DNA of 64,000 nt from Mycobacteriales bacterium. Its GTDB lineage: Bacteria > Actinomycetota > Actinomycetes > Mycobacteriales > JBJMIH01. The position numbers and the translations under genes are program-made. This document shows, one piece after another, positions 688-62,469 of this stretch. The notes below the pieces were generated by a model, which saw only the letters and a list, made by a program, of their open reading frames with translations, did no database searches and was not told the DNA's origin. The DNA is taken from assembly GCA_045806985.1 (NCBI GenBank), contig JBJMIH010000031.1, forward strand, positions 10,038 to 74,037, read 5' to 3'. Within the stretch, counting starts at the first letter, position 1, and the number at the start of each line of letters is the position of its first letter.

Positions 688-900
688 ATGGACGAAAAGA
701 CGACGATAATTCTTTGTGGCGGCCCGGAGTGCCTGGACGAGTGCGAGCGGGTGCGCCATTGTTCCGAGCTTCCCGACAAGGTCGTCGTCGACCTCAACGG
801 CGGGCACGAGAGGTTCGAGCCCGCCGGTGAGTACCGCGACCTGGACGGGGAGAAGGCCGCCGTCTTCGAGTGGTGCTACCGCACCGCCGTCGCGGAGTGA
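688..900 (+). CDS. Small hypothetical protein (70 aa), resembles the actinobacterial DUF5988 family
   Basis: ATG preceded by GAGG. The composition is balanced, not the Arg/Pro/Gly-rich kind. The layout (IILCGGPECLD...VVVDLNGGHERFEP...VFEWCYRTAVAE) matches my recollection of DUF5988 proteins (..LEGGP..LP...K...GGYEHFE....W..RT.IAE). Family assignment is from memory, not from a search. Confidence 0.55.
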   Translation: MDEKTTIILCGGPECLDECERVRHCSELPDKVVVDLNGGHERFEPAGEYRDLDGEKAAVFEWCYRTAVAE

Positions 901-919: not shown

Positions 920-1510
920 CTAGTGCTTGCGGCACAGCGTGATCTCGTCCTCGACCGGGTAGGTCGGGTCGGTCTTGCTGATGACCCGCCACCGCCAGGT
1001 CCCGGACATGCCGGCGTACCGGCCGCTGGTGCCCCTGATCGCCATGCTCACCCAGTCCTGGGCGATGACCGAGGTGCGGTCCTGCGTCCCGGTGCCGACG
1101 AGCGTGCCGTCCGAAAAGTGCATCTGCTCGGCGATGTACTGCACGACGTGGCCGTCCGGCCGCGCGTAGAGCAGGTCCAGGTCGCCGGCGGCGGTCGCCA
1201 CGTGCTGGTTGCCCGTGAAGTCGTACAGCTCGTCGAGGTAGGCGGACATGTAGCCGGGGTTGACCGGGATGCCGGTCCCCACCGGTTGGTTGGTCATGAA
1301 CTTGACGGTGTGCTCCACCAGGTGCTTGCGCGCGCAGCCGGCCTTCGCCCTCGCCGCGTCGGCGGCGCTGGCGTGGTGCCCGCCGGTCGCCGCCGGCACG
1401 GCGAAGGCCGCGGTCGCGGCGGCCGCGACCGCGGCGGCCGCGACCGCGGCGGCCAGCACTGCCAGCCGCCGCGGTGAGTATCGCCGCCCGATCAGCTCGA
1501 ACGGTCGCAT
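920..1510 (-). CDS. Secreted small protein, paralog 1 of 3 (dirigent / allene-oxide-cyclase-barrel-like, function unknown)
   Basis: 196 aa. ATG at 1510 preceded by GAAAGGGGA. N-terminal twin-Arg/Ala-rich signal-like segment (IGRRYSPRRLAVLAAAVAAAAVAAAATAAFA/VPA). The mature part begins near a Cys (AGCARKH) and ends ITLCRKH, giving a conserved Cys pair. The GTSGRYAGMSGTWRWRV motif resembles the GGTG.y.Ga.G strand of dirigent/AOC-like beta-barrels. Confidence 0.8.
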   Translation of the reverse strand: MRPFELIGRRYSPRRLAVLAAAVAAAAVAAAATAAFAVPAATGGHHASAADAARAKAGCARKHLVEHTVKFMTNQPVGTGIPVNPGYMSAYLDELYDFTGNQHVATAAGDLDLLYARPDGHVVQYIAEQMHFSDGTLVGTGTQDRTSVIAQDWVSMAIRGTSGRYAGMSGTWRWRVISKTDPTYPVEDEITLCRKH

Positions 1511-1531
1511 CGTCTCGTCCCCTTTCGCTCG

Positions 1532-2095
1532 TCAGGAGTGGTGCCGGCACAGCGTGATGGTGTCCTCGATCGGATGGTTCGGCTGTGTCACCAGTACCCG
1601 CCACCGCCAGGTCCCGGACATGCCGGCGTACCGGCCGCCGGTGCCCTTGACCGGCATGCCCACCCACTTCTGGGCGAGCTCGTCGGCCTGGTCCTGGGCC
1701 CCCGTCCCGACGAACGTGCCGTCCGGGAACTGGACCTGCTCGGCCGCGTACTGCACGAGGTGGCCGTTGGACTTCCGGGAGATGATGTCGAGGCCGCCGG
1801 TGCCGGACGCGACGTGCTGGTCGGTGCCGAAGTTGTCCAGGTCGGTGAGGTAACCGGCCATCCAGCCGACCTTGTCCGGCGCCCCGGACGGCCCCACCGG
1901 CTCGTTGGGCAGGTACTTGAGGGTGTGCTCCGTCAGGTGCAGCCGCACGCACCCGGACGCCGGCTTGCTGGCGGCGGCGTGCGCGTGCCCGCCGGTCAGG
2001 GCCGGCGCCGCGACGGCGGCGGCCCCGGCGGCGAGCAGCGCGCCGGCCGGCAGCGCCAGCCGCCGCGGCGGAAGGTTCCTTCCGGGGATGCCCAT
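1532..2095 (-). CDS. Secreted small protein, paralog 2 of 3 (dirigent / AOC-barrel-like, function unknown)
   Basis: 187 aa. ATG at 2095 preceded by GAGGAAGGAG. Signal-like N-terminus (PPRRLALPAGALLAAGAAAVAAPALTGG). Cys near the mature N-terminus (SGCVRLH) and the C-terminal ITLCRHHS. GTGGRYAGMSGTWRWRV is identical in pattern to paralog 1. A conserved DNA tract (acccgccaccgccaggtcccggacatgccggcgtaccggccgc) is shared with paralog 1 at 983-1026 and 1588-1631. Confidence 0.8.
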   Translation of the reverse strand: MGIPGRNLPPRRLALPAGALLAAGAAAVAAPALTGGHAHAAASKPASGCVRLHLTEHTLKYLPNEPVGPSGAPDKVGWMAGYLTDLDNFGTDQHVASGTGGLDIISRKSNGHLVQYAAEQVQFPDGTFVGTGAQDQADELAQKWVGMPVKGTGGRYAGMSGTWRWRVLVTQPNHPIEDTITLCRHHS

Positions 2096-2108
2096 CTGGA
2101 CTCCTTCC

Positions 2109-2642
2109 TCAGTGGCAGAGGTTGATCTTCAGGGCGAACGTGTTCTCGGTGGGCACCTGCGACGGCCCGCTCAGCCGCTGGAACGCGACCGTGCCGACCG
2201 TGCCCTGGTACTTCCCGCCGGTGCCGACCGCCGGCAGCGTCACCCAGACGCCGGGCGTCTCGGCCTTGACGGCGTCGAAGAACGCGTCCTGCCGGACGGT
2301 GCCGCCGGGCAGCCGGTACTCGTACGAGGCGAGCGTGAGCACGGTGGGCTGCACGCTGCCGATCGTCGTGGAACCCACCGCGGTGCCGGACCTGCCGTCA
2401 CTGGAGGTGATCTTGTCGACGAACGCGATGCTGTCGCCCGGGGTCGGCGGGATCACCTTCCCCTGCACCGACATCTTCTGCACCTGCTCGCGGCCGGTGA
2501 ACGTGAGGCAGTTCGCCGCCGTCGTGTGTCCGGAGGCGGACGACCCCGGCGACACCACCGCGAGGCCGGCGGTCACGCCGCCGGCCACGACCGCGGAGGC
2601 GGCGAGCACCATCCACCGCTTCGAGAGTGACATGCGTGGCAT
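2109..2642 (-). CDS. Secreted small protein, paralog 3 of 3 (more divergent; dirigent / AOC-barrel-like, function unknown)
   Basis: 177 aa. RBS GGAAAGAGGA upstream of the start at 2642. Sec-type signal-like N-terminus (SKRWMVLAASAVVAGGVTAGLAVV). Cys pair (AANCLTF ... KINLCH). GTGGKYQGTVGTVAFQRL aligns with the G.G.Y.G..GT motif of paralogs 1 and 2. Confidence 0.75.
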   Translation of the reverse strand: MPRMSLSKRWMVLAASAVVAGGVTAGLAVVSPGSSASGHTTAANCLTFTGREQVQKMSVQGKVIPPTPGDSIAFVDKITSSDGRSGTAVGSTTIGSVQPTVLTLASYEYRLPGGTVRQDAFFDAVKAETPGVWVTLPAVGTGGKYQGTVGTVAFQRLSGPSQVPTENTFALKINLCH

Positions 2643-2705: not shown

Positions 2706-4262
2706 CTAATGCCGCCCTTGAGCCATCTCGGATTGGCGGCTCGGATCGGCCAGCTCCTTTTCCCGCTGGCTCGGCCCGCGCGGCACGAACAGCAGTGCGA
2801 GGACCATTCCGGCGACCGCGATGAGCCCGCAGGCGACCAGCATGACGTCCATTCCGTGAATGAACGCCGACCGCACCGAGTGCAGCAGCGCGGGCGAGTG
2901 CAGCTTGCGGGCGACGGCCGTGCCGCTGAGCACGGACCGGCGTGCCGCGTCGGCGGCGGGGGCGGGCAGGCCGGTCAGGTTCAGCCGACCCCGGTACCCG
3001 GAGTTGATCACCGAGCCGAGCAGCGCCACCCCGAACGTGCCGCCCACCGTCCGGATCGCGGTGATCAGCGCCGAGCCGACCCCGCTGCCCTCGGCGCTGA
3101 GGACCGCCAGCGCGGCGTTCATCGAGCCGGGCAGGGCCAGTCCGAGGCCCGCCCCGAGGAGCGCCACCCAGCCGGCGGTGAAGCCCTCGCCGCTGTGGAA
3201 GCCGGTCGTCGCGCCGGCGAACAGCCCGGCCGCCATCAGCGCGAATCCGGCCGCGATCGTCATCTTGGCGCCCACCCCGGCGGTGAGCCGGTCCGCGACC
3301 GCGCCACCGACCACCAGGCCGGCGATCATCGGCAGCAGCCGGATGCCGGCGCCCATCGCGTCGGTGCCGCGCACGCCCTGGAAGTACTGGGGCACCGCGA
3401 ACAGCAGCCCGAACATCGCGAACGACACCAGCGTCGCCAGCAGCGTCCCCCAGGAGAACGTGCGGGACCTGAACAGCCGCAGGTCGACCAGGGGCTGGCC
3501 GTCCGGCCGCCGGCCCAGCCGGCGCTCCCACTCCACGAACCCGGCCAGCACCACCGCGCCGAACAGCATCGGCAACACTGACCCCAGGTTGCTCCAGCCC
3601 TTCTGGCCAGCCTCGATCGCGCCGTACGTGAGCGCGGCCAGGGCGACGCTGGAGCCCAGGATGCCGGTCATGTCCAGGTCCGGCCGCCGCTCGCTGCGCG
3701 ACTCCGGCAGCAGTACCGCCACCGCCACCACCGCCAGCGCGGACACCGGCACGTTGATGAGGAACACCGAGCCCCACCAGTAGTGGGTGAGCAGCCAGCC
3801 GCCCAGCAGCGGGCCCAGCGGGTAGGCCACCACGGTCATGCCGACCAGCACGATCACCGCCCGGCCGCGCTCCTCCTCGCTGAACAGCACCGGCAGCACC
3901 GACAGCGACAGCGGCAGCACGAACGCCGCACCGAGCCCGAGCACCACCCTGGCGGCGATGAGCTGGCCCGGCGAGGTGGTGTACGCGCACCACAGCGACG
4001 AGGCCCCCAGCACCACCAGGGAGATCACCAGGAAGATCCGGCGGCCGTACCGGTCGCCGAGCAGGCCGCCCGGCAGCAGCATCGCGGCCATCGCGAGCGT
4101 GTAGGCGTCGACGATCCACTGGAGATCGGTGGTGGACGCGTGCAGGTCGGTGGACAGGGTCGGCAGGGCGAGGTTGAGCACGGTGGCGTCCAATCCCACC
4201 ACCAGCAGGGCGAGGGCGAGCGCGCCCACCGCCCACCACCGACGGTCACCTACCTTGGCCAT
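2706..4262 (-). CDS. MFS transporter, DHA2 (EmrB/QacA-like, 14-TMS type) drug:H+ antiporter; probable product exporter / self-resistance
   Basis: 518 aa. N-terminus WWAVGALALALLVVGLDATVLNLALPTLSTDLHASTTDLQWIVDAYTLAMAAMLLPGGLLGDRYGRR is the classic DHA2 signature. Hydrophobic segments run throughout. The start lies 24 nt after the PKS4 stop, with GAAGGG upstream. Confidence 0.9.
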   Translation of the reverse strand: MAKVGDRRWWAVGALALALLVVGLDATVLNLALPTLSTDLHASTTDLQWIVDAYTLAMAAMLLPGGLLGDRYGRRIFLVISLVVLGASSLWCAYTTSPGQLIAARVVLGLGAAFVLPLSLSVLPVLFSEEERGRAVIVLVGMTVVAYPLGPLLGGWLLTHYWWGSVFLINVPVSALAVVAVAVLLPESRSERRPDLDMTGILGSSVALAALTYGAIEAGQKGWSNLGSVLPMLFGAVVLAGFVEWERRLGRRPDGQPLVDLRLFRSRTFSWGTLLATLVSFAMFGLLFAVPQYFQGVRGTDAMGAGIRLLPMIAGLVVGGAVADRLTAGVGAKMTIAAGFALMAAGLFAGATTGFHSGEGFTAGWVALLGAGLGLALPGSMNAALAVLSAEGSGVGSALITAIRTVGGTFGVALLGSVINSGYRGRLNLTGLPAPAADAARRSVLSGTAVARKLHSPALLHSVRSAFIHGMDVMLVACGLIAVAGMVLALLFVPRGPSQREKELADPSRQSEMAQGRH

Positions 4263-4286: not shown

Positions 4287-8522
<4,236 letters not shown>

Positions 8523-8528
8523 GTGGCA

Positions 8529-34774
<26,246 letters not shown>

Positions 34775-34777
34775 TCG

Positions 34778-53732
<18,955 letters not shown>

Positions 53733-53743
<11 letters not shown>

Positions 53744-54818
53744 CGCTGAGCCCCTCCCGCACCCGGCCGCGCGCCTTCGCCAGCCACCAGGCCAGGTCGA
53801 GCACCGCCCGCCGCGGGCCGCGCACGCCCCGCATCCGCAGCACGGACTGGGCCGTGAACAGCTTCGACTCGGTCACGTGCCCAGGCGAGGCGTGCACGTC
53901 GTCGATCTCGGCGGTCCGCACGTTCGGCGCGTGCGCGGCGAGCCGGCGCGGGTCGGCCGGCGGGATGATCTCGTCCCGCCTGCTGGCCAGGTACGCCACC
54001 GGCACCGGCAGCGCGGCCAGCATGTCGTCGGTGAGCGCCCAGTCCGGCAGCAGGCCGGGCAGGCCCTCGGCCTTGCCGCCGGTGAGGTGCGCGAGCGTGT
54101 CGACGGTCACCTTCGGCAGCCGCTGCTGCCAGGCCGGGTCGGTGAAGAACGCGCTGACCGGCGCGCCGGCCGTCACCACCCCCCGGATGCGGCGGTCGGT
54201 GAGCGCGCAGCGCAGCGCCAGGTGCCCGCTGAAGCTGAGGGCGACCGCGTACGTCCGCGCCACGTCGGCCCGGTCGGCGACCGCGTCCAGCACCGCGGAC
54301 AGGTACCGCCAGCTGTCCGGGCCGTAGCTCGCCGGGTTCTCGCCGACGCCGGGCAGCTCGGCCACCACGCCGGCCATGCCGGTCCGGCCCAGGTCGGCCA
54401 GCAGCGGCGCCCACTGCTCCTTCACGCTGACGATGCCGCCGCAGACCAGCAGCAGCGGGCGGCGCTTCGATCCGGACAGGCCGGACGCCCAGCAGCGCAC
54501 GTCGCCGGCGTCCACCCGCTCGATGCCGCGCCGGCCCCGCCGCCAGGTGTCGAACGCGGCGACGCAGGCGTCCTGCGCCCGCTGCCGGGCCGGGCCGTCC
54601 ACGTACGGGAAGCGCGCCATCGCGTACCGCCGGCTGCCGCCCAGCGGGTCGCCGGCCGCCACCCGCCGGTCACCGGCCGCCGTCCACTGCACCACCCAGG
54701 AGGTCGGGCTGTCCTCGGCGTCATCGGTGATCCGGTCCAGCACCTCCCGGTGGTCCCTGATGTCCTGGGCGCGGGCGTGCACGGTCGCGAACCGCTTCAG
54801 CTCCTCGACGTCGTTCAT
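53733..54818 (-). CDS. Alpha/beta-fold hydrolase of the tetronate cassette (AbyA5/ChlD4/Agg5/QmnD4-position; candidate acetate-eliminating, exocyclic-methylene-forming enzyme)
   Basis: 361 aa. FrsA-like alpha/beta hydrolase look. The candidate nucleophile elbow is AVALSFSGH, a variant of GxSxGG. It sits immediately after the E2-like gene (ATGA overlap at 54815-54818), and its stop overlaps the PKS1 start by 11 nt. The functional call rests on gene context and family analogy. Confidence 0.75.
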
Positions 54819-55579
54819 GCCGGCTCTCCCTTGAAGTTCTCCAGCGCCTCCTTGATCTCGCCCAGCACGTCGGCGGCTTCCGCGCCGTCGATCACCCGGT
54901 GGTCGAAGGCCAGGCTGAGCCGCATCGCCGGTACCACGACCACCTCGCCGCGCCGCGCGACCGGACGGTCGGCGACCTGGCCCATGCCGAGCGTGATCGT
55001 GGTGCCGCCGACCGAGTGGAAGGCGTCGACCGGCCGGTGCCCCAGCGAGCTGACCGCGAACGTGCCGACCAGCTCGGGCCGGCGGCGCAGCGAGCGCATC
55101 CCGGCGCGGTACAGCAGCCGGCCCAGCGGCACGGGCAGCTTCTGCAGCATCCGGGGGCCGGCGAACTCCGGCATGTTGGCGGCGTCGCCGTCGCGGTAGT
55201 GGTCCACCTGGGCCTGGATGTCGGCCAGGCCGGCACTGTCCAGGTCCGGCAGGACGGCGGTGAGCACCACCCGGTGGCCGTTGACGGTCTTGTCCAGCGC
55301 GAGCTTGCCGCTGGCCGTCCCGTACCTGGCCACCCGCGGCCGGGACCAGCCGGTGATGGCCCCGTTCGCCTCCGGGTGCCCGACCAGCACGCGGGCGGCC
55401 GCGTACAGCACGTAGCTGACCGTCGAGTACCGCTCGCCGCGGGCGCGGGCCTCCTCCCGGTGCGCGGTCACCGCGCTCATGTCCACCTCGGTGTCCAGGA
55501 AGACCGGCGCGAACTCACGGGCCTGGCCGAGGAACTGGTAGGTGTGCCGCCGCTCCCTGGGCAGCTGGTTGATGGTCAT
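54815..55579 (-). CDS. 2-oxoacid dehydrogenase E2-type acyltransferase, catalytic domain only (AbyA4/ChlD3/Agg4/QmnD3-position)
   Basis: 254 aa. The C-terminal segment LSLAFDHRVIDGAEAADVLGEIKEALE contains the DHRxxDG catalytic motif of E2 acyltransferases. No lipoyl or E3-binding domain is present. ATGA overlap with the ACP stop at 55576-55579. Confidence 0.85.
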   Translation of the reverse strand: MTINQLPRERRHTYQFLGQAREFAPVFLDTEVDMSAVTAHREEARARGERYSTVSYVLYAAARVLVGHPEANGAITGWSRPRVARYGTASGKLALDKTVNGHRVVLTAVLPDLDSAGLADIQAQVDHYRDGDAANMPEFAGPRMLQKLPVPLGRLLYRAGMRSLRRRPELVGTFAVSSLGHRPVDAFHSVGGTTITLGMGQVADRPVARRGEVVVVPAMRLSLAFDHRVIDGAEAADVLGEIKEALENFKGEPA

Positions 55580-55803
55580 GTCCCCACCGCCACTGTGTAG
55601 ATCTGTTCGAGGCTCCTGGCATGCAGCAGGTCGGGCAGCGACAGCTGCCGCCCGGTGTCCCGCTCGAGGAGGGTGAGCAGCCAGAGCAGGTGCATCGAGT
55701 CCCAGCCGGGCAGCTCGTCCAGGTCGCGGCCGGCGTCGGCGTCGGATACCTCGATGCCGAGCTCGTCGCGCACCACGGTCAGCAGGTCGTCCATGCTGTT
55801 CAC
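55576..55803 (-). CDS. Discrete acyl carrier protein (glyceryl-ACP carrier; AbyA3/ChlD2-position)
   Basis: Only the last ~75 codons of track ORF 55576..57321 make sense: (VNS)MDDLLTVVRDELGIEVSDADAGRDLDELPGWDSMHLLWLLTLLERDTGRQLSLPDLLHARSLEQIYTVAVGT. The phosphopantetheine Ser sits in GWDSMH (codon 55696-55698). The start is either the GTG at 55803 (GTGA overlap with the FkbH-like stop) or the ATG at 55794. Confidence 0.8.
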   Translation of the reverse strand: MNSMDDLLTVVRDELGIEVSDADAGRDLDELPGWDSMHLLWLLTLLERDTGRQLSLPDLLHARSLEQIYTVAVGT

Positions 55804-57677
55804 GTCGGTTCCCGTTCGAGTTCGTCGGTGAGGCGCACGCAGTCCGGCGGCGCCACGATGTCGGTCAGGTCGTGGCGGAACAGCGCGGTGCCGCCGTCGT
55901 CGCCGACCTTGGTGAAGCCGTGCCGCGGGTAGAACTCGCGCATCGCGCGGTTCTTCGCGGTCGGCCGGTACGCCCCGTACACCGCCGCCGCGCCGGCGTC
56001 CCGCGCGTGCCGCAGCAGCGCCGCCAGGCAGGCCCGCTCGATGCCCCGGACGAACACCCGGCAGCTGAGCAGGAAGTTCTCCACGGTCATGCCGTCGCCG
56101 CCGCGCCGGGCGAAGATCGCGCCAACCATCCCGTTGTCGCCGAACCGGTCGCTGGCCCGGATCGTCAGCACCAGCGCGTCCGGGTCGTCCAGCAGGGCGC
56201 TGACGTCGGCGGGGGACAGCCGGCGGGTGGTCAGGTTGAACTGGTTGGTCCGTAGCGTGAGCTGGGACAGCCGGGGCACGTCCGGCTCGCCGGCCCTGGC
56301 CAGCCGGACCCGGATGTCCAGCTCGCGGCGGTACTCGTCGAGGGACTCGAAGTGCTGGAGGAAGTCGGTGCGGTCCAGCTCCTCGCGGTAGCGGGCGACC
56401 CTGGCGCGGTCCTCCTCGGTCAACTCCCGGGTGTCGAACCAGCCGTCGGCCAGCAGCCGGTCCACGTGCAGCGCCGGCTCGCCGTCGACCTCCACCACGG
56501 CCACGTCCGGCAGCTCGCGGCGGACCAGCCCGCGCTCGGCGGGGCTGTCGTCCACGAACACGACGCTGTCGGCGCCCAGGTTGAGGGCGGCGACCAGCTC
56601 GGCGAGGCTCTCGTGCTTCGGCCCCCAGCCGGCGGCGACCCGCACGAAATCCTCCTCGCGCAGCGTCATCTCCGGGTGCTCGCGCAGCGCCTGGCGCACC
56701 GGCTCGGGGTCGTTCTTGCTGACCGCCGCCAGCAACACCCCCTGCGCGCCGAGCTGCCTGGCGACCCGCTGGAAGGCGCGGAACGCCTCGCCGCGGTCGC
56801 CGCCGGCCACCTCCAGGCCCTCCACCCCGTCGTCGCCGAGCGTGCCGCCCCACACCGTCTCGTCCAGGTCGAGGGCCAGGCACTTGCGGGTACGGCCGGT
56901 GAGGTGGCGGGCCAGGTGGCCGACCTCGCGGGCGTAGCGGGCCAGCAGCTCCAGGGACAGGTGGCAGCCGGCGTAGGTGTCCAGCCGCGGCTCCACGGCC
57001 GGCACGCCACCCTCGGCCAGCAGCGGGTCCAGATCCACCACGACGGTCGCGGGGTGGTCTTCCGGCAGCCGCAGCAGGCGCGCGTTCGCCTCCCGCCAGG
57101 CGGCGCCGAGCGCGGCCCGGGACCGGTGGTCGACCAGCTGCCCGGTGACCGCGCGGGGGAGCGGCAGGGTGTTCAGCACCAGCGTGCCGGCGCCCGTGCC
57201 CTCGTACCGGCCGGCCAGCCGCTCCACCAGCTCGACCTTCGCGGCCAGCACCCGCCCGGCGTCCGCCGGCCGCCACGGCAGCGGCAGCTCGTCGGTCACC
57301 ATCCGGGGGTCCAGCACGCACAGCACCAGGTCGCAGTCGCCGGCGTAGACCAGGCTGTCCGGATCGGACAGTTCGCGGGCGTAGCCGCCGTACTCGCCCA
57401 CCTCGGCGCGCAGCAGCAGCCCGTGCCGGGCCAGCTCGGCGGCGAGCGGCGGCAGCAGGCCGGCGAGCGTGCCGTGGCCGGTGAGCGCGACCCGCACGGC
57501 GGGCACGTCCGGGTGCCGGCCGGCCACCTCGTCCGGGTCCAGCCGGGCGAGCAGCCGCCCGGCCTGGGCCAGCCCGTCGCCGTCCAGGTCCGCGAGCAGC
57601 TGCCTGACCCGCGGGTACCCGGCCGCCAACCGGCCGGTGCGGTACAGGTCGAGGAGCTCGGCGAGCGGCGTCGACAT
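55800..57677 (-). CDS. FkbH-like glyceryl-S-ACP synthase (HAD phosphatase + acyltransferase; AbyA2/ChlD1-position)
   Basis: 625 aa from the ATG at 57677 (MSTPLAELLDLYRTGRL...). The HAD motif is LALDLDETVWGG (DxDxT). VFVDDSPAE and FLLSCRVFVRGIE (Cys motif) are typical of FkbH-like domains. The ATG overlaps the FabH-like stop. The longer track ORF (to 58076) overlaps the FabH-like gene and is Arg/Gly-rich. Confidence 0.9.
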   Translation of the reverse strand: MSTPLAELLDLYRTGRLAAGYPRVRQLLADLDGDGLAQAGRLLARLDPDEVAGRHPDVPAVRVALTGHGTLAGLLPPLAAELARHGLLLRAEVGEYGGYARELSDPDSLVYAGDCDLVLCVLDPRMVTDELPLPWRPADAGRVLAAKVELVERLAGRYEGTGAGTLVLNTLPLPRAVTGQLVDHRSRAALGAAWREANARLLRLPEDHPATVVVDLDPLLAEGGVPAVEPRLDTYAGCHLSLELLARYAREVGHLARHLTGRTRKCLALDLDETVWGGTLGDDGVEGLEVAGGDRGEAFRAFQRVARQLGAQGVLLAAVSKNDPEPVRQALREHPEMTLREEDFVRVAAGWGPKHESLAELVAALNLGADSVVFVDDSPAERGLVRRELPDVAVVEVDGEPALHVDRLLADGWFDTRELTEEDRARVARYREELDRTDFLQHFESLDEYRRELDIRVRLARAGEPDVPRLSQLTLRTNQFNLTTRRLSPADVSALLDDPDALVLTIRASDRFGDNGMVGAIFARRGGDGMTVENFLLSCRVFVRGIERACLAALLRHARDAGAAAVYGAYRPTAKNRAMREFYPRHGFTKVGDDGGTALFRHDLTDIVAPPDCVRLTDELEREPT

Positions 57678-58771
57678 CAGGCCCCCGCCACCTTCTCCAG
57701 CTTCTCCAGGGCGAAGCCGGCCTCGATCCACTTGCTGGACTCGATCGCGACGCCGGCGGCCCTGTCGCCGGCGGCCATCCGCGGCAGCAGCTGCTCCAGC
57801 TGGAAGAAGGGCAGCGCGTTGCCGTTGTTTCCGGTGCGGGCCACGCAGCTCACCTCGGCCGCGTCCCGCACCGCCAACCGCTCCACGATCCGGCCGGTCA
57901 TCGCGCCGGACAGCTGCGGCGGCAGCAGGTGGTCCAGGTCGTCCGGCTTCCAGTCCAGCCGGTCCAGCAGCTCGGTGAGGGTGTCGGCGGCCAGCTCGGG
58001 CACGGATTCCTCGATGGCCTTGTAGTCCTCGCCGCCGGCCGGCCGGTCCGCGTCGCGGTCGGCCAGCCCGAACCACTCCACGGTCTGGCCCGGCGGCCGT
58101 CCCCTGCCGACCAGGCGCACGAACGCGTCCCGCAGCACCACGTCACCGGCGCCGGCGGCCCCGGTGGCGGCGGCGGTGGCGGTGGTGGCGGCGGTGGGCT
58201 CGGTGGTCAGCACCGCCGCGCCGGCGCCGTCGCCGAAGAGCACCACGTTGACCAGCTGCTCCGGCGCCAGCGTGTGCAGGTCGAGGGTCAGGTCCAGGTG
58301 CTTGGCGCACACGTCGCCGCCGAGCACCAGCGCGGTACGGCACCGGCCCGCGCGCAGCATCGTCGCGGCCACGTCCAGCGCCTGGACGGCGCCCGAACAC
58401 CCCGACTGGAGCTGGTAGCTGGGTATCCCGTCGATCCCGATCCGGTCGGCGACCACGTTCACGGTGGCCGGCATGAGCGCGTCCGGCGTCGCGGTCCCCA
58501 TCACGATCAGCCCGACCTCCGCGGGCTCGACCTCCGCCTGCTCCAGCGCGGCCCGCCCCGCGGCGGTCGCCAGGTCCGCCAGCCCGCACCGCACCTCGCC
58601 CGACTCCAGGTCGACGGCGAGGTGCCGGCTCGCGGTCCCGACGAACGAGTCGATCCACTGCTCCCAGACCGAGTTCATCCCGAACCGCCTGGCCAGCATC
58701 GCGTTGCTGACCGGAGGACCCGGCAACTCCGTACCGACCCCGACCACTCGCACTTCCGGAACGCTCATCAC
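57677..58771 (-). CDS. FabH-like ketoacyl-ACP synthase III homologue (tetronate ring-forming; AbyA1/ChlM/Tmn15/RkD-position)
   Basis: 364 aa. The GTG at 58771 is followed immediately by an ATG at 58768, with GGTGGGGA upstream. Motifs seen: VRVVGVGTELPG, active-site Cys in QLQSGCSGAVQAL, VLFGDGAGAAVL, and GNNGNA at the FabH Asn position. The FabH HQAN position reads PPQLS by hand alignment. Confidence 0.9.
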   Translation of the reverse strand: MMSVPEVRVVGVGTELPGPPVSNAMLARRFGMNSVWEQWIDSFVGTASRHLAVDLESGEVRCGLADLATAAGRAALEQAEVEPAEVGLIVMGTATPDALMPATVNVVADRIGIDGIPSYQLQSGCSGAVQALDVAATMLRAGRCRTALVLGGDVCAKHLDLTLDLHTLAPEQLVNVVLFGDGAGAAVLTTEPTAATTATAAATGAAGAGDVVLRDAFVRLVGRGRPPGQTVEWFGLADRDADRPAGGEDYKAIEESVPELAADTLTELLDRLDWKPDDLDHLLPPQLSGAMTGRIVERLAVRDAAEVSCVARTGNNGNALPFFQLEQLLPRMAAGDRAAGVAIESSKWIEAGFALEKLEKVAGA

Positions 58772-58839: not shown

Positions 58840-59484
58840 CTACCGGGGATCGGTGGTGAGGTAGGCGACGACCATGTCGCCGACCATGCGGCGTTGCTTT
58901 CGGCGGTATCCGGGGTCGGTCAGGTCACGGCCGAACAGGGCGCCGAAGGTGTGCTGGTTGGCGACGCGGAAGAAGCAGAACGCGCTGATCATCAGGTGCA
59001 GGTCGAGCGCGTCGGCCGGGGCGACGAAGTCGCCGCTGGCGCGGCCGGCCGCGAGGATCCTGGAGATCAGGTCGAGCACGGGCGCGCCCAGGTTGACCAG
59101 CAGGTCGGACTTGCGCAGGTGCTCGGCGCGGTGGATGTTCTCGATGCTGACCAGCCGGATGAAGTCGGGATGCGCGTCATGGTGGTCGAAGGTCAGCTCG
59201 GCCAGCGTGCGGATCGCCTCGACCGGGGCCAGGTGGGCCACGTCGATGCTGGCCTCGGCGGCGCGGATCTCGCTGTACGCCCGCTCCAGCACGGCGATGT
59301 AGAGCTGCTCCTTGCCGCCGAAGTAGTAGTAGATCATCCGCTTGGTGGTGCGGGTCAGCGCCGCGATCTCGTCCACCCGCGCGCCGTCGTACCCCTGCCG
59401 AGAGAACTCGCGCATGGCGACGTTCAGGATCTCTGCCCGGGTGCGTTCCGCGTCGCGCTGGCGCATCGCCGCCAGTCTAGACAC
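58840..59484 (-). CDS. TetR-family transcriptional regulator
   Basis: 214 aa. The N-terminal HTH region ERTRAEILNVAMREFSRQGYDGARVDEIAALTRTTKRMIYYYFGGKEQLY is the TetR signature. GTG start at 59484; an alternative ATG lies at 59466. It sits 68 bp upstream of the FabH-like gene and 1 nt downstream of the preceding stop. Confidence 0.9.
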   Translation of the reverse strand: MSRLAAMRQRDAERTRAEILNVAMREFSRQGYDGARVDEIAALTRTTKRMIYYYFGGKEQLYIAVLERAYSEIRAAEASIDVAHLAPVEAIRTLAELTFDHHDAHPDFIRLVSIENIHRAEHLRKSDLLVNLGAPVLDLISRILAAGRASGDFVAPADALDLHLMISAFCFFRVANQHTFGALFGRDLTDPGYRRKQRRMVGDMVVAYLTTDPR

Positions 59485-59485
59485 G

Positions 59486-60286
59486 TCAGCCGAGGTAGGC
59501 GGGCAGTACCGAGGGCGGTACGGGTCCCTTGTTCCGCCGGCCCTGGCCCGCCTCCTCCCACGCGTGCGCGAGGATGCCGACGCTCCTGCTCAGCACGAAA
59601 AGGCCGCGGGCCAGCGGCGCCGGGAAGCCCAGCTCGGCGAAGATGATCGCGGTGGCGCCGTCGATGTTCATCGGCACCGGCCGGCGCCGGACCGTGGTGA
59701 GGCGCGCCTCCAGCGCCAGGCCGGCGCGCAGGTGGTCCCCGGCGACCAGCCCGTCCCGCACGGCGCCGTCCACCAGCGACAGCAGCGGGTCGCGGCGCGG
59801 GTCGACGGGATGGAACCGGTGCCCGAACCCGGGCAGGTAGCGCGGCCCCTCGGCGATCACCCGGTCCGCGGCCGCGGCCAGGTCGAGGCCGGTCGCGGCC
59901 AGCTCCCGTACCCGGTCCAGCAGCTCGACGCACTGCTCGCCGGCCCCGCCGTGCACGTCGCCGAGCACGTTGACGCCGCTGGCCACCGCGTTGTTGAGGC
60001 CGACACCGCAGGTGACCGCCATCCGGGCGATCGCCACCGACGGCGCCTGCGGGCCGTGGTCGACGGCGGCGACCAGCGCCGCCTCCAGCAGCCGGGCCCG
60101 GCCGGGGTCGGGCAGCTCGCCGCGCAGCATCAGCCAGATGACGCCGGCCAGGCCGGTCCGGCCGATGAGGTCCTGCACCGGCCGCCCGCGCAGCTCCAGC
60201 ACGCCGGGTTCCATCCGGGACACCGCCGTACCCCACCAGCCGGCCACCTGGCCGGTCGGGTCGACGTCGTTGACCGGGCCGGTCAT
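59486..60286 (-). CDS. Short citrate-synthase-family protein (citryl-CoA lyase-like)
   Basis: 266 aa from the ATG at 60286 (MTGPVNDVDPTGQVAGWWGT...). GDVHGGAGE and PGFGHRFH resemble citrate synthase catalytic His motifs. It is far shorter than a full citrate synthase. ATGA overlap with the CoA-transferase stop. The upstream part of the track ORF (to 60889) is Arg/Pro-rich and was rejected. Confidence 0.75.
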   Translation of the reverse strand: MTGPVNDVDPTGQVAGWWGTAVSRMEPGVLELRGRPVQDLIGRTGLAGVIWLMLRGELPDPGRARLLEAALVAAVDHGPQAPSVAIARMAVTCGVGLNNAVASGVNVLGDVHGGAGEQCVELLDRVRELAATGLDLAAAADRVIAEGPRYLPGFGHRFHPVDPRRDPLLSLVDGAVRDGLVAGDHLRAGLALEARLTTVRRRPVPMNIDGATAIIFAELGFPAPLARGLFVLSRSVGILAHAWEEAGQGRRNKGPVPPSVLPAYLG

Positions 60287-61479
60287 GACGCCGTCGCCTC
60301 CCCGGCCCAGTCGCGCCAGCGGGCCACCAGCCCGTCCCGCTCGGCGTTGTGCTCGCCGAGCAGCGGCGGCGGCGCGGTGGCCGCGAGGGGCTCGCCGTCG
60401 TGCAGCACGCCGCTGCCGCTGACCCGCACCGTCCGTCCCGACCCGTCCGGGAACGGCAGGTCGGTGAAGAAGCCGCGGTGGGCGAGCTGGTCCAGCCCGA
60501 CCGCCTCCGGGACGGTGACGACGCGGGCGGCCGGCACGCCGGCGGCGGTGAGCAGCCGTTCCCACTCGGTGGCCGGCCGGGTCCGCAGCGCGCCGGTCAG
60601 CTCCCGGTTGAGCGCGTCGCGGTGGGTGCGGCGGTCCTCCCGGTCGGCGAACCGCCGGTCGGTGGCCAGGTCGGCCCTGCCCACCACCGCGCACAGCGTC
60701 TCGAACTGCCGCTGCTGGTTGGCGGCGATGTTCAGGGCGCCGTCGGCGGTGGCGAAGGTGCCGGACGGCGCCGCGGTCGCGTTCTGGTCGCCCATCGGCT
60801 CCGGCGCGACCCCGCTGACCAGGTAGTGGGTGACGGTCCATGCCATCGCCGAGAGCGCGACCTCCAGCATGGACAGGTCGAGGTGGCAACCCCGGCCGGT
60901 GCGCTCGCGGCCGGCCAGCGCGGCGCAGATGTGCAGCGCCGCGGCCAGCCCGCCGAGCGTGTCGCAGACCGGGAAGCCGACCCGCAGCGGCACGGTGTCC
61001 GGCGTGCCGGTGACGCTCATCATCCCGGACAGTCCCTGGATGATCTGGTCGTACGCGGGCGCCTGGCTCATCGGCCCGTCCTGGCCGAAGCCGGAGATCG
61101 CGCAGTACACCAGGCGCGGGTTGAGCTCGCCGAGCCGGGGCCAGCCGTACCCGAGCCGGGCCAGCACCCCGGCGCGGAAGTTCTCCAGCAGCACGTCGGC
61201 GCCGCGCACCAGGTCGGTGAACACCGCCCTGTCCGCGGTGTCCTTGAGGTCGAGCTCGACGGACTTCTTGCCGGCATTCTGGGCGAGGAAGGAGGCGCCC
61301 AGGCCGGCCCGGTTCAGCGCCGGCTCCGGCCCGAGGTGCCTGGCCAGGTCGCCCTGCCCGGGCACCTCGACCTTGACGACTTCCGCGCCGAGCAGCGCGA
61401 GCTGGTAGGCGCAGTACGGACCGGCCAGCACGTTGGTGAGGTCGACCACGCGTACGCCGTCGAGCGGTCGCTGCTGCAT
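60283..61479 (-). CDS. CaiB/BaiF-family (class III) CoA-transferase
   Basis: 398 aa from the ATG at 61479. MQQRPLDGVRVVDLTNVLAGPYCAYQLALLGAEVVKVE is the canonical family N-terminus. ENFRAGVLARLG and GFPVCDTLGG (catalytic Asp region) are also present. Confidence 0.88.
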   Translation of the reverse strand: MQQRPLDGVRVVDLTNVLAGPYCAYQLALLGAEVVKVEVPGQGDLARHLGPEPALNRAGLGASFLAQNAGKKSVELDLKDTADRAVFTDLVRGADVLLENFRAGVLARLGYGWPRLGELNPRLVYCAISGFGQDGPMSQAPAYDQIIQGLSGMMSVTGTPDTVPLRVGFPVCDTLGGLAAALHICAALAGRERTGRGCHLDLSMLEVALSAMAWTVTHYLVSGVAPEPMGDQNATAAPSGTFATADGALNIAANQQRQFETLCAVVGRADLATDRRFADREDRRTHRDALNRELTGALRTRPATEWERLLTAAGVPAARVVTVPEAVGLDQLAHRGFFTDLPFPDGSGRTVRVSGSGVLHDGEPLAATAPPPLLGEHNAERDGLVARWRDWAGEATAS

Positions 61480-61514
61480 CCGGCTGCTCCTCGGTCGGCT
61501 CGGGTCAGGGTCGC

Positions 61515-62354
61515 TCAGGTCGAGGGGCTGAGCGGGTGCTCGAAACCGCGCTCCGACATCCGGGCGGCGACCTCGCGCAGGTCCCCGGCGAACTCCTCGA
61601 CACGGTCGTCGGTGAAGCGGACGGTGGGCCCGCTGAGCGAGAGCGCGGCGACCACGGCGCCGGACCGGCCGGTGACCGGCGCGGCCACCGCCGACAGCCC
61701 GTCCTCGCGCTCGCCGTGGCTCACCGCCCAGCCGCGGTACGCCACCTCGTCGATCCACTCGCGCAGCCGCCGCACGTGCTCCGGCCCGTACGGGGAGGCG
61801 GCCGCGACCCTGGCCAGCAGCGTGTCGGGCGCGTCGCGGAGCAGCACCTTCGCGGACGCGCCCGCCCACAACGGAAGCTCGTCGCCGACGTGCACCACGT
61901 GCCGCAGCGGTTGCGGGCTCTCCTGCTGGGCGACGCAGACGCGCCAGGTGTCGCGCCGCAGGTACAGGTTGACGGTCTCGCGCTGCCGCGCGCCCAGGTC
62001 GCGGATGAGCTTGCGGGTCTCCGGGGGCAGCTCCCAGCCGCTGCGGACCAGGTGCGCCCACCGCCAGAGGCCGGGGCCGGCGCGGTACCCGCCCGGCGTC
62101 GCCCACAGCAGGCCGTTGCGCTCCAGCGTCTGGGCCAGCCGGATCGCGGTGGTCTTGGCCAGGCCGGTGGCCGTCACGATGTCCCTGATCGAGATCGACG
62201 GGCGCTCCTCGGTCAGCAGCGCCAGGATGTCGAGGGCCCGCTGGACGCTCCGGACGCCCGACTGTTCGGTGTCCTCGTTCTCCGCGATCACATCCGGGAG
62301 CCTACTCCACGGTCCGTGTACCGGTCCAGGCGCGCCGTCAAGTGGCACCGGCAC
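61515..62354 (-). CDS. IclR-family transcriptional regulator
   Basis: 279 aa with a GTG start. The wHTH region is VRSVQRALDILALLTEERPSISIRDIVTATGLAKTTAIRLAQTLERNGLL. The C-terminal effector domain contains GWAVSHGEREDGLSAVAAPV. The true start may be a little further downstream. Confidence 0.88.
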   Translation of the reverse strand: MPVPLDGAPGPVHGPWSRLPDVIAENEDTEQSGVRSVQRALDILALLTEERPSISIRDIVTATGLAKTTAIRLAQTLERNGLLWATPGGYRAGPGLWRWAHLVRSGWELPPETRKLIRDLGARQRETVNLYLRRDTWRVCVAQQESPQPLRHVVHVGDELPLWAGASAKVLLRDAPDTLLARVAAASPYGPEHVRRLREWIDEVAYRGWAVSHGEREDGLSAVAAPVTGRSGAVVAALSLSGPTVRFTDDRVEEFAGDLREVAARMSERGFEHPLSPST

Positions 62355-62469
62355 GGATCTGTTTTGACCTCTTCCCTTCTTTGAACAGCGTCACTATAAA
62401 TAACTCACCAGTTCGTACATTAGGCACCGATCCGCTGGTTGGTACGGACAGACCGTCCTGGGAGGGCCG
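62355..62469. promoter_or_regulatory. AT-richest intergenic region of the window, between divergent IclR and aldehyde dehydrogenase genes; candidate divergent promoters / IclR operator
   Basis: The sequence is ggatctgttttgacctcttcccttctttgaacagcgtcactataaataactcaccagttcgtacattaggcaccgatcc. TTGACC/TTGAAC-like and TATAAA/TATAGT-like hexamers occur on both strands, but their spacings do not fit a canonical sigma-70 promoter as I counted them. Confidence 0.35.

What the first reader, a model, noticed from the sequence alone, without database searches (positions are those of the whole stretch)
920..2642. Three tandem secreted Cys-pair beta-barrel-like paralogs as the last genes of the PKS/exporter string
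Three paralogous ORFs of 196, 187 and 177 aa follow the MFS gene on the same strand, with gaps of 63, 13 and 21 nt and strong RBSs. Each has:
- A signal-peptide-like N-terminus. Two carry an RR motif (PRRLAVLAAA, PRRLALPAG).
- A Cys near the mature N-terminus and a Cys 2-4 residues from the C-terminus (ITLCRKH, ITLCRHHS, KINLCH).
- A G.(S/G)G.Y.G..GT motif that recalls dirigent / allene-oxide-cyclase-barrel-like proteins.

That fold family templates cyclisations or couplings. No AbyU/VstJ/PyrI4-type cyclase is recognisable in the cluster. One speculative reading is that these proteins bind, chaperone or cyclise the exported tetronate extracellularly. Alternatives are product sequestration for self-protection, or no connection to the cluster at all.
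Basis: inference. Interest (0 to 1): 0.65.

Follow-up and report, generated by a model that had tools for sequence, protein, structure and literature searches.

The report
Three exported Diels-Alderase-type barrel paralogs
The three small genes at the end of this tetronate polyketide cluster are relatives of the known AbyU/Cyc15 ring-closing "Diels-Alderase" barrels, but all three carry export signals and an end-to-end cysteine pair, so ring closure probably happens outside the cytoplasm after the linear precursor is pumped out.

Summary
Three real co-directional genes (920-1510, 1532-2095 and 2109-2642, minus strand) follow the MFS gene with gaps of 63, 13 and 21 nt and have good ribosome-binding sites. 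Each has a signal-peptide-like N-terminus, two of them with RR, and a Cys at each end of the mature domain.

All three pass Pfam AOC_like (PF18678). However, that family is the AbyU/AbmU/PyrI4/Cyc15 spirotetronate [4+2] cyclase family: ORF1 matches Cyc15 (8OF7) at E=8e-28, and the AlphaFold models match only natural Diels-Alderase barrels at TM about 0.8. These three genes are the only such cyclases in the window.

The unusual feature is location. In an exhaustive HMMER search the family is small (176 representatives). About two thirds carry signal peptides, some with lipoboxes, and this correlates strongly with the terminal Cys pair. All 12 signal-bearing homologue genes examined, at 11 loci, lie beside tetronate-cassette or PKS genes, and three loci besides the window have an adjacent MFS pump.

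Best explanation: these are exported, disulfide-stapled pericyclases that cyclise the exported linear tetronate. This is a new variant of a known enzyme kind. Export and activity are inferred, not shown.

The parts
920..1510 (-). AOC1: 196-aa AbyU/Cyc15-family beta-barrel. Predicted Tat-type signal peptide is residues 1-49 (nt 1364-1510) and the mature domain is nt 923-1363. Cys59 is at nt 1334-1336 and Cys193 at nt 932-934.
   Evidence: ORF and RBS. PF18678, E=6.8e-19. Cyc15 8OF7, E=8.2e-28. AF2 pLDDT 90.2 with 8 strands. Foldseek TM 0.81-0.83 to Cyc15/Cyc15b.
1532..2095 (-). AOC2: 187-aa paralog, 55-57% identical to AOC1. Predicted Tat-type signal peptide is residues 1-40 (nt 1976-2095). Cys49 and Cys183.
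   Evidence: PF18678, E=7.9e-13. Cyc15, E=2.3e-20, and AbmU, 1.8e-10.
2109..2642 (-). AOC3: 177-aa divergent paralog, 23-28% identical to AOC1 and AOC2. Predicted Sec-type signal peptide is residues 1-37 (nt 2532-2642). Cys45 and Cys176.
   Evidence: PF18678, E=8.8e-12. Best PDB sequence hits are PloI4 at 7.8e-06 and AbyU at 6e-04. AF2 pLDDT 89.6. Foldseek TM about 0.8 to AbyU. No closer relative than 36% identity among the 1.84 billion representatives.
2706..4262 (-). DHA2-family MFS efflux pump (518 aa) immediately upstream in the same gene string. Proposed exporter of the uncyclised tetronate.
   Evidence: PF07690, E=1.2e-53. TIGR00711 efflux_EmrB, 239.5 bits against a cut-off of 230.2. No promoter-like or terminator-like site between it and the AOC genes.
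4287..8522 (-). PKS4: the last module, KS-AT-ACP. The beta-keto group is kept for tetronate formation.
8529..19667 (-). PKS3: modules 7-8, KS-AT-DH-ER-KR-ACP and KS-AT-DH-KR-ACP.
19664..34774 (-). PKS2: modules 4-6. Module 4 is KS-AT-DH-ACP without a KR.
34778..53743 (-). PKS1: KSQ-AT-ACP loading module plus modules 1-3. Modules 1 and 2 are DH-KR, which predicts a terminal conjugated diene.
53733..54818 (-). Alpha/beta-hydrolase of the tetronate cassette (AbyA5-like, eliminating enzyme).
   Evidence: PF06500 and PF00561. 51% identical to the cassette gene of L003.
54815..55579 (-). 2-oxoacid-dehydrogenase-type acyltransferase of the tetronate cassette (AbyA4-like).
   Evidence: PF00198, E=8.9e-23.
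55576..55803 (-). Free-standing ACP of the tetronate cassette. The start codon is uncertain, either GTG at 55803 or ATG at 55794.
   Evidence: PP-binding match in this frame. Coordinates.
55800..57677 (-). FkbH-like glyceryl-ACP loading enzyme (625 aa).
   Evidence: TIGR01686 FkbH, 300.9 bits against a cut-off of 146.65.
57677..58771 (-). KASIII-like tetronate-forming ketosynthase (AbyA1-like).
   Evidence: PF08545 and PF08541. 63% identical to the L003 cassette gene.
58840..59484 (-). TetR-family regulator at the head of the gene string.
   Evidence: PF00440 and PF17938.

Best explanation
The three genes encode exported, eight-stranded beta-barrel pericyclases of the AbyU/AbmU/Cyc15/PyrI4 spirotetronate [4+2] cyclase family.

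**Proposed steps.**
1. The PKS (loading module plus 9 extension modules) and the five-gene tetronate cassette build a linear polyketide in the cytoplasm. It carries a terminal conjugated diene and an exo-methylene tetronate.
2. The co-transcribed DHA2 MFS pump exports this precursor.
3. The three barrels are translocated. AOC1 and AOC2 probably use Tat (RR motif) and AOC3 probably uses Sec. They are then cleaved and stapled by a disulfide between the first and last strands.
4. Outside the membrane, at least one barrel binds the flexible chain in its hydrophobic lumen and pre-organises diene and dienophile for the cycloaddition. The finished polycycle therefore forms outside the cytoplasm.
5. 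AOC1 and AOC2 are a recent duplicate pair and AOC3 is an old, distinct lineage. They probably differ in the step or stereochemical outcome they control.

**Shown versus inferred.**
- Shown here: family membership, fold, gene order, the signal-like and Cys-pair features, and their family-wide pattern.
- Inferred: export, disulfide formation, catalysis, substrate identity and the division of labour among the three.
For: **Family membership and fold.**
- All three pass PF18678.
- ORF1 and ORF2 match the experimentally active cyclase Cyc15 (8OF7) at E=8e-28 and 2e-20, and also AbyU, AbnU, AbmU, PloI4 and PyrI4. Cyc15's activity is reported in PMC10946715. ORF3 matches PloI4 and AbyU.
- The AF2 models (pLDDT about 90) are 8-stranded barrels. 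Their first 41 Foldseek PDB hits are all natural Diels-Alderase-type or related tetronate-pathway barrels at TM about 0.8.
- The conserved barrel-head Glu is present in all three. The pocket aromatic equivalent to AbyU/Cyc15 Trp124 is Trp in AOC1 and AOC2 and Phe in AOC3, as in PloI4 F124.

**Cluster context.**
- They are the only AOC_like genes in the window. No FAD-type cyclase or other tailoring gene is visible.
- The window holds a complete tetronate cassette and a PKS predicted to give a terminal diene.
- One co-directional gene string runs from KASIII to AOC1 with very small gaps and no terminator-like site.

**Evidence for export.**
- A ribosome-binding site sits before the upstream ATG in each gene.
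- The n-region is identical in the 85%-identical orthologue P0002.
- By a crude heuristic, 102 of 156 family representatives have a signal-like N-terminus. Of these, 89 also have the terminal Cys pair, against 15 of 54 without a signal (Fisher p about 1e-13).
- Some members have classical lipoboxes, such as LTGC|A and LAGC|G.

**Pathway linkage of signal-bearing homologues.** Twelve genes at 11 loci, L001, L002, L006-L014, all lie next to tetronate-cassette or PKS genes. The gene lies directly beside an MFS gene in the window and in L002, L008 and L010.
Against: - Export, cleavage and the disulfide are predicted from sequence only. No SignalP/TatP run was possible, and the model coordinates could not be read to measure the Cys-Cys distance.
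- All characterised family members (AbyU, AbmU, PyrI4, Cyc15) are described as soluble enzymes made in E. coli, with no secretion reported.
- The barrel-head Arg of the Glu-Arg salt bridge (Cyc15 R122, AbmU R150) is replaced by Trp, Trp and Val in AOC1, AOC2 and AOC3.
- The predicted chain has only one clear conjugated diene, so one cycloaddition is expected and three enzymes are more than needed.
- The 65% figure refers to the neighbourhood of a profile built from these three signal-bearing proteins. The sequences are not phylogenetically independent.
- The producer is an uncultured MAG, and the product is unknown.
Confidence: 0.55

Rival explanations
1. The proteins are exported binding or carrier proteins rather than catalysts. 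The barrels would capture the exported, already cyclised (or spontaneously cyclising) tetronate outside the cell. This would stabilise, solubilise or sequester it, either for self-protection or for delivery. Secreted apoproteins of chromoprotein antibiotics do something similar (from general knowledge, not tested here).
For: - The barrel has a hydrophobic lumen of lipocalin-like or AOC-like type.
- The export signals and disulfide suit a stable extracellular binder.
- The salt-bridge Arg seen in most active cyclases is missing.
- Three copies exceed the single cycloaddition expected from the PKS.
Against: - Sequence similarity is to proven catalysts at E down to 8e-28, and the pocket Trp/Phe and barrel-head Glu are kept.
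- No other cyclase exists in the window to perform the [4+2] step.
- In several other loci the signal-bearing gene is the only AOC_like gene in sight and is embedded in the tetronate cassette.
- Catalysis in this family is itself binding-driven pre-organisation, so binding and catalysis are hard to separate.
Confidence: 0.15
2. The proteins are cytoplasmic or membrane-tethered cyclases. On this view the hydrophobic N-termini are not cleaved export signals. They would be uncleaved anchors or mis-called starts, and cyclisation would occur inside the cell as assumed for AbyU.
For: - All characterised relatives are treated as cytoplasmic.
- The Ala-rich N-termini are what a 72-78% GC genome readily encodes.
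- No predictor could be run.
Against: - Good ribosome-binding sites precede the upstream ATGs, and no convincing internal start lies before the N-terminal Cys.
- With a positive n-region, an uncleaved anchor would still place the barrel outside the membrane.
- The terminal Cys pair tracks the signal across the family.
- Some members carry lipoboxes.
- The n-region is perfectly conserved in the orthologue, while the h and c regions vary with an indel, as is typical of signal peptides.
Confidence: 0.1
3. The proteins are exported barrel enzymes with a chemistry other than [4+2] cycloaddition. Candidates are a Tsn15/Tmn8-type pericyclic rearrangement, a PloI4-type [2+2] reaction, or PodA-like modification of a foreign small molecule. 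Their link to this cluster's product would then be partial or absent.
For: - Tsn15, PloI4 and the pyocyanin demethylase PodA all appear among the fold matches.
- AOC3's best sequence match is PloI4.
- The salt-bridge Arg is absent, as reported for Tsn15 and Tmn8.
Against: - PodA, plant AOC and dirigent proteins match only at fold level, with 11-20% identity and E from 5e-7 to 6e-3.
- Tsn15 matches at E=0.85 by sequence.
- The tight operon-like linkage, and the cassette context of every homologue examined, argue for an on-pathway role.
Confidence: 0.1

Closest known systems
Cyc15 (PDB 8OF7) and Cyc15b (9QP8), genome-mined spirotetronate [4+2] cyclases from Streptomyces
   Same: - These are the closest solved relatives of AOC1 and AOC2 (E=8e-28 and 2e-20; 34-39% identity in the Foldseek structural alignment; Foldseek TM 0.81-0.83).
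- They share the 8-stranded barrel, the barrel-head Glu and the pocket Trp.
- Cyc15 cyclises a synthetic tetronate in vitro (PMC10946715).
   Different: - The crystallised Cyc15 chain is 153 residues and its homology with AOC1 begins at about residue 15, leaving no room for a signal peptide of the length seen here. The alignments do not extend to the two positions where AOC1 has its terminal Cys residues.
- Cyc15 has Arg122 where AOC1 and AOC2 have Trp.
- It comes from a fragmented cluster of unknown product.
AbyU (5DYV), AbnU (7DVI) and AbmU (6YMN), abyssomicin-type Diels-Alderases
   Same: - Same Pfam family and fold (E=2.6e-12 to 5.6e-09 for AOC1, TM about 0.8).
- Same pathway logic: tetronate cassette, PKS-made terminal diene and exo-methylene dienophile (PMC11318650).
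   Different: - They are described as soluble enzymes produced in E. coli, with no export reported in the papers read.
- They keep the Glu-Arg salt bridge (AbmU E47/R150, AbnU E10/R112).
- They are single-copy genes. Here there are three copies, all with signal peptides, and a longer chain (9 extension modules).
PyrI4 and PloI4 (spirotetramate [4+2] and [2+2]/[4+2] cyclases) and Tsn15 (tetronasin)
   Same: - Same barrel fold (TM 0.70-0.83).
- AOC3's best sequence match is PloI4, and the two share Phe at the PloI4 F124 position.
   Different: - PyrI4 has an N-terminal lid helix rather than a signal peptide.
- Tsn15 matches only weakly by sequence (E=0.85).
Plant allene oxide cyclase, dirigent proteins and pyocyanin demethylase PodA
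   Same: Same barrel superfold. Foldseek E is 5e-7 to 6e-3 and TM 0.6-0.7.
   Different: Only 11-20% identity. They rank below every Diels-Alderase barrel and are not sequence relatives of these ORFs.

Membership tests
AbyU/PyrI4-type spirotetronate [4+2] cyclases (Pfam PF18678 AOC_like) | Sequence match to the family model above its curated threshold | tested here: met
   Scores are 68.2, 48.6 and 45.3 bits against a cut-off of 25.9. phmmer against the PDB gives Cyc15 at 8e-28, AbyU at 2.6e-12, and AbmU, PloI4 and PyrI4 at 1e-8 to 1e-9.
AbyU/PyrI4-type spirotetronate [4+2] cyclases (Pfam PF18678 AOC_like) | Eight-stranded antiparallel beta-barrel | tested here: met
   The AF2 models of AOC1 and AOC3 have pLDDT of 90.2 and 89.6 and 8 strands each. 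Foldseek TM is about 0.8 to Cyc15, AbyU, AbnU, AbmU, PyrI4 and Tsn15. AOC2 was not modelled; it is 55-57% identical to AOC1.
AbyU/PyrI4-type spirotetronate [4+2] cyclases (Pfam PF18678 AOC_like) | Glu-Arg salt bridge closing the barrel head. It is present in most members, is His in PyrI4 and ChlL, and is absent in Tsn15 and Tmn8 (PMC10946715). | tested here: not met
   The Glu is conserved in all three (E66 in AOC1; invariant column). The Arg position (Cyc15 R122) is Trp, Trp and Val. This feature is not universal in the family.
AbyU/PyrI4-type spirotetronate [4+2] cyclases (Pfam PF18678 AOC_like) | Aromatic pocket residue on the strand after the GxGxYxG block (AbyU/Cyc15 Trp124, PloI4 Phe124) | tested here: met
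   The residue is W174 in AOC1, the equivalent Trp in AOC2, and Phe in AOC3 (alignments).
AbyU/PyrI4-type spirotetronate [4+2] cyclases (Pfam PF18678 AOC_like) | Encoded in a cluster with the five-gene tetronate cassette and a modular PKS that supplies a conjugated diene | tested here: met
   KASIII, FkbH (TIGR01686), ACP, acyltransferase and hydrolase are all present. There are four PKS genes, and modules 1-2 are DH-KR.
AbyU/PyrI4-type spirotetronate [4+2] cyclases (Pfam PF18678 AOC_like) | Acceleration and stereocontrol of an intramolecular [4+2] cycloaddition | not testable with these tools
   This needs purified mature proteins and the linear substrate.
Sec/Tat-exported proteins with a cleavable signal peptide | Positive n-region, hydrophobic h-region and a small-x-small cleavage motif, plus twin arginine for Tat | tested here: inconclusive
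   All of these elements can be read in the sequences: RR in AOC1 and AOC2, KR in AOC3, and ASA, AHA and SAS sites. Family-wide, the heuristic signal co-occurs with the Cys pair and with lipobox members. No trained predictor or experiment was available.
Sec/Tat-exported proteins with a cleavable signal peptide | Structural disulfide typical of extracytoplasmic proteins | tested here: inconclusive
   The Cys pair lies at the start of strand 1 and the end of strand 8, which are neighbours in a closed barrel. The pair has a median spacing of 132 residues and occurs in 89 of 102 signal-bearing members against 15 of 54 others. The distance in the model could not be measured.
Plant allene oxide cyclase / dirigent proteins | Sequence membership in PF06351 or PF03018 | tested here: not met
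   The Pfam scan at E<=1 reported neither PF06351 nor PF03018 for any of the three. Only distant fold matches were found, with 11-16% identity.

The most novel reading that the evidence does not exclude
Cyclisation may be a post-export maturation step. In this cluster, and in many of the tetronate pathways whose cyclase is a signal-bearing member of this family, the Diels-Alder-type ring closure that creates the bioactive scaffold would take place outside the cytoplasmic membrane.

- It would be carried out by Tat/Sec-exported or lipid-anchored, disulfide-stapled barrels working with a dedicated efflux pump.
- The producer would therefore never hold the finished compound in its cytoplasm, a prodrug-like form of self-protection.
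- The three paralogs here would direct different ring closures or stereochemical outcomes of one exported precursor.
Probability: 0.4. Interest if true: 0.75.

Novelty: new variant of a known kind. Interest (0 to 1): 0.55.

Why it matters
- **Location of the chemistry.** Natural Diels-Alderases of the AbyU type are studied as soluble cytoplasmic catalysts. If many of them act outside the cell, that changes where the key scaffold-forming step of spirotetronate antibiotics is thought to happen.
- **Self-resistance.** It suggests a simple route to self-protection: export the harmless linear chain and close the rings outside.
- **Practical consequences.** It may explain why some family members fail to express in E. 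coli. Full-length constructs of about 180 aa, such as Cyc16 and Cyc17, gave no protein in PMC10946715, although I could not check whether those carry signals. It also tells genome miners and enzyme engineers to trim the signal and allow the disulfide to form.
- **This locus.** It is a compact cluster with no other tailoring genes, which makes it a clean test case for the idea.

Tried and rejected
- **Exact-sequence contig look-up.** Looking up AOC1 and its identical database entry P0001 found nothing. The source is known only as a Mycobacteriales MAG.
- **Word-indexed homologue searches.** The search with full-length AOC1 was swamped by low-complexity signal-peptide words and gave 2 hits. The mature domain gave 3 hits and a 55-sequence profile gave 16. 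The exhaustive HMMER search was needed to see the family.
- **Metagenome scans.** The scan with AOC2 alone found nothing. The profile scan found two short loci.
- **Lipoprotein reading for the three ORFs.** Considered and rejected. The N-terminal Cys lies about 20 residues beyond the h-region, and the -1 to -3 residues do not fit a lipobox. Other family members do have lipoboxes.
- **Internal start codons.** I looked for starts that would remove the signal peptides. None has a ribosome-binding site at proper spacing before the N-terminal Cys.
- **MelC1 similarity.** AOC1 residues 14-51 align weakly with the N-terminus of MelC1 (E about 2). This is not significant and was not used as evidence.
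- **NCBIfam.** No meaningful model matched the three proteins.
- **Literature.** Searches for secreted or signal-peptide-bearing spirotetronate cyclases found no discussion of the topic. The only trace is a methods note that some library sequences were trimmed with SignalP.
- **False positive.** P0093 in the HMMER list is a PLAT-domain protein, not a family member.
- **Product prediction.** Beyond the domain order I did not pursue this. The chain could give either a macrocyclic spirotetronate or a decalin-tetronate, and the data cannot decide.
Full report
**1. What is there**

The left end of the window carries three co-directional minus-strand ORFs of 196, 187 and 177 aa at 920-1510, 1532-2095 and 2109-2642. 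I call them AOC1, AOC2 and AOC3.
- They follow a 518-aa MFS gene (2706-4262). The intergenic gaps are 63, 13 and 21 nt.
- Third-position GC is 0.93-0.96 in each frame and 0.92-0.95 inside the N-terminal 37-49 codons.
- Each ATG is preceded at 5-9 nt by a Shine-Dalgarno-like sequence: AAAGGGGA, GGAAGGAG or GGAAAGAGGA.
- No promoter-like or terminator-like site lies between the MFS gene and the last ORF.
- AOC1 and AOC2 are 55-57% identical. AOC3 is 23-28% identical to either.

**2. What the proteins are**

All three pass Pfam PF18678 (AOC_like) well above the curated cut-off. That family is the spirotetronate and spirotetramate [4+2] cyclase family.

Sequence evidence against the PDB:
- AOC1 matches Cyc15 (8OF7) at E=8.2e-28 and Cyc15b (9QP8) at 1e-24.
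- It matches AbyU at 2.6e-12, AbnU (7DVI) at 1.4e-10, PloI4 at 3e-09, AbmU at 5.6e-09 and PyrI4 at 3.3e-08.
- AOC2 behaves the same way. AOC3 matches PloI4 and AbyU more weakly.
- Cyc15 is a hypothetical protein from Streptomyces sp. NL15-2K that was shown to cyclise a synthetic tetronate (PMC10946715).

Structural evidence:
- AlphaFold2 models of mature AOC1 and AOC3 are confident (pLDDT 90.2 and 89.6) and show eight strands.
- In Foldseek against the PDB, the first 41 hits are all natural Diels-Alderase-type or related tetronate-pathway barrels at TM about 0.8 (Cyc15, Cyc15b, AbyU, AbnU, AbmU, PyrI4, PloI4, Tsn15, LucK).
- Pyocyanin demethylase, plant allene oxide cyclase and dirigent proteins come only after these, at 11-20% identity.

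The statement that no AbyU/VstJ/PyrI4-type cyclase is recognisable was wrong. A six-frame scan with a family HMM finds exactly these three genes and no other in the 64 kb.

**3. The cluster**

From 58771 down to 920 there is one co-directional string with overlaps or gaps of a few bases.
- Tetronate cassette: KASIII-like ketosynthase; FkbH (TIGR01686, 300.9 bits against a cut-off of 146.65); a free-standing ACP; a 2-oxoacid-dehydrogenase-type acyltransferase; and an alpha/beta-hydrolase.
- Four PKS genes, then the DHA2 MFS pump (TIGR00711 above its cut-off), then the three barrels.
- A TetR gene sits at the head of the string.

Domain mapping of the PKS:
- The loading module is KSQ-AT-ACP, followed by nine extension modules.
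- Modules 1 and 2 are DH-KR, so a terminal conjugated diene is expected.
- Module 4 is KS-AT-DH-ACP without a KR.
- Module 9 is KS-AT-ACP, which leaves the beta-keto group used for tetronate formation.

No P450, FAD-dependent decalin cyclase or glycosyltransferase is visible. The barrels are the only tailoring candidates in the window. The database names the source as a Mycobacteriales MAG.

**4. The unusual part: export signals and a terminal cysteine pair**

Read directly from the sequence:
- AOC1 has a +4 n-region ending in RR, a 23-residue Ala/Val h-region and ASA|A at residue 49.
- AOC2 has PPRR, a 21-residue h-region and AHA|A at residue 40.
- AOC3 has SKR, a 21-residue h-region and SAS|G at residue 37.
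- In each protein one Cys follows 8-10 residues after the predicted cleavage site and another lies 1-4 residues from the C-terminus.
- In the AOC1 model these fall at the start of strand 1 and the end of strand 8. These strands are neighbours in a closed barrel. I could not read the coordinates to measure the distance.
- The 85%-identical metagenomic orthologue P0002 keeps the first 26 residues unchanged, while its h and c regions vary with an indel. That pattern is typical of signal peptides.

To see whether this is peculiar to the locus, I ran an exhaustive HMMER search with the three mature domains against 1.84 billion representative proteins.
- The family is small: 176 representatives at E<=1e-3.
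- With a crude heuristic, 102 of 156 complete sequences have a signal-like N-terminus.
- Of those 102, 89 have a Cys pair at a median spacing of 132 residues, against 15 of 54 sequences without a signal. Several of those 15 look like mis-called starts inside a signal (Fisher p about 1e-13).
- A few members have classical lipoboxes, such as VVLTGC|AEE, ALAGC|GTS and IGLTGC|ASS.
- Signal-bearing and signal-less members interleave among nearest neighbours. The AbyU-like P0047 is closest to the signal-bearing P0074 at 48% identity, and the Cyc15-like P0039 is closest to the signal-bearing P0018 at 50%. Location therefore seems evolutionarily labile.

Caveats: the profile was built from signal-bearing proteins, the sequences are not independent, and the heuristic is not a trained predictor.

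**5. Are signal-bearing members on-pathway?**

I examined 12 signal-bearing homologue genes at 11 loci, and every one is embedded in tetronate or PKS genes.

| Locus | Source | Neighbouring genes |
|---|---|---|
| L001 | metagenome, orthologous contig | ORF2-like fragment, AOC_like, DUF5988, carboxyltransferase |
| L002 | Actinomadura sp. DC4 | TetR, MFS, AOC_like, PKS |
| L006 | Streptomyces sp. ACT015 | next to KASIII, hydrolase, PKS, P450, MFS |
| L007, L012, L014 | metagenomes | KASIII gene immediately downstream |
| L008 | NCBI assembly GCA_049997995.1 | one signal-less and one signal-bearing copy, the latter followed by MFS |
| L009 | metagenome | FkbH, ACP, acyltransferase, hydrolase, PKS |
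| L010 | NCBI assembly GCA_040682735.1 | lipoprotein-type copy followed by MFS, between PKS genes |
| L011 | metagenome | two tandem copies, one of lipoprotein type, then KASIII |
| L013 | Logan assembly (SRR32638363) | inside the cassette |

Tandem multi-copy arrangements and AOC-MFS adjacency therefore recur. The 'unrelated to the cluster' alternative is unlikely.

**6. Mechanism proposed**

- Shown: family, fold, context, and the signal and Cys features.
- Inferred: the linear exo-methylene tetronate made in the cytoplasm is pumped out by the MFS transporter. The barrels are exported (AOC1 and AOC2 probably by Tat, AOC3 by Sec), cleaved and disulfide-stapled. At least one of them then pre-organises diene and dienophile in its lumen for the cycloaddition outside the membrane.
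- Conserved pocket features support catalysis. The barrel-head Glu is present in all three. The pocket aromatic is Trp in AOC1 and AOC2 and Phe in AOC3, at the position of AbyU/Cyc15 W124 and PloI4 F124.
- One feature is not met. The Arg of the Glu-Arg salt bridge is replaced by Trp, Trp and Val. That feature is already variable in the family: it is His in PyrI4 and ChlL and absent in Tsn15 and Tmn8.

Why there are three copies is not explained. Only one conjugated diene is predicted. Possibilities are different ring closures or stereochemical outcomes, hetero-dimers of the AOC1/AOC2 pair, or one catalyst plus binders.

**7. Rivals**

- Exported binders or carriers: 0.15.
- Non-exported or anchored cytoplasmic cyclases: 0.10.
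- Exported barrels with other chemistry or another target: 0.10.

**8. Comparison with what is known, and novelty**

- AbyU-type cyclases in tetronate clusters are well known, so the gene family and its presence here are ordinary.
- I could not find any discussion of export in the searchable literature. The only trace is a methods note that some library sequences were trimmed to the mature form with SignalP. The two flagged that way were a plant protein and a gammaproteobacterial protein.
- I rate the finding a new variant of a known kind, with moderate interest. It is a testable claim about where a much-studied pericyclic step takes place, and it rests on sequence inference only.

Noticed in passing
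window 688-900 (+); L001 777-989; L003 10905-11129: A 70-aa DUF5988 (PF19450) gene is convergent with AOC1. The same small gene lies next to the AOC_like gene in the orthologous metagenome contig, where it is followed by a carboxyltransferase. In Dactylosporangium vinaceum it lies just downstream of the AOC_like gene and overlaps the start of a crotonyl-CoA-reductase-like ORF. It may be linked to extender-unit supply in tetronate clusters.
   Followed up: partly
window 30863-34774 (-), PKS2 residues 37-1304: PKS module 4 is KS-AT-DH-ACP with no ketoreductase. Either the DH is inactive and a ketone is retained, or a KR acts from elsewhere. This decides whether the chain has one conjugated diene or two.
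   Followed up: partly
window 52592-53663 (-), PKS1 residues 27-384: The first KS has Gln in place of the active-site Cys (AAQSSS) and is followed by an AT with the HAFH motif. This indicates a KSQ-type decarboxylating loading module.
   Followed up: no
L003 9746-10318; L004 3145-3780; L005 (same gene): A second kind of N-terminal extension occurs in some family members. It has an acidic start followed by a short AVAAA-type hydrophobic stretch and no positive n-region. It occurs with the Cys pair in L003 and without it in L004 and L005. It is not a classical signal peptide, and its role is unknown.
   Followed up: no
proteins P0043 (374 aa) and P0120 (440 aa): These are multi-barrel family members with a signal peptide. 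P0043 has two AOC_like domains, each with its own Cys pair (39/175 and 223/355). P0120 has three domains. P0043 resembles the two-domain layout reported for QmnH, but its identity was not established.
   Followed up: partly
L011 3481-4648: Two tandem signal-bearing AOC_like genes, one with a lipobox (ALAGC|G), lie directly upstream of a KASIII-like tetronate gene and next to a divergent TetR gene and an ABC transporter. This is another multi-copy exported set.
   Followed up: partly
window 59486-63951: Beyond the TetR gene lie matches to a citrate-synthase C-terminal domain, a family III CoA-transferase, an IclR regulator and an aldehyde dehydrogenase. The first two ORF calls overlap, so their true boundaries are unclear. 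These genes are probably primary metabolism and mark the cluster edge.
   Followed up: no
window 2642 versus database entry P0004: The database annotation of AOC3 (P0004, 174 aa) starts at the second Met (MSLSKRW...). The ATG at 2642 has the better-placed ribosome-binding site. Either start keeps the signal peptide.
   Followed up: partly
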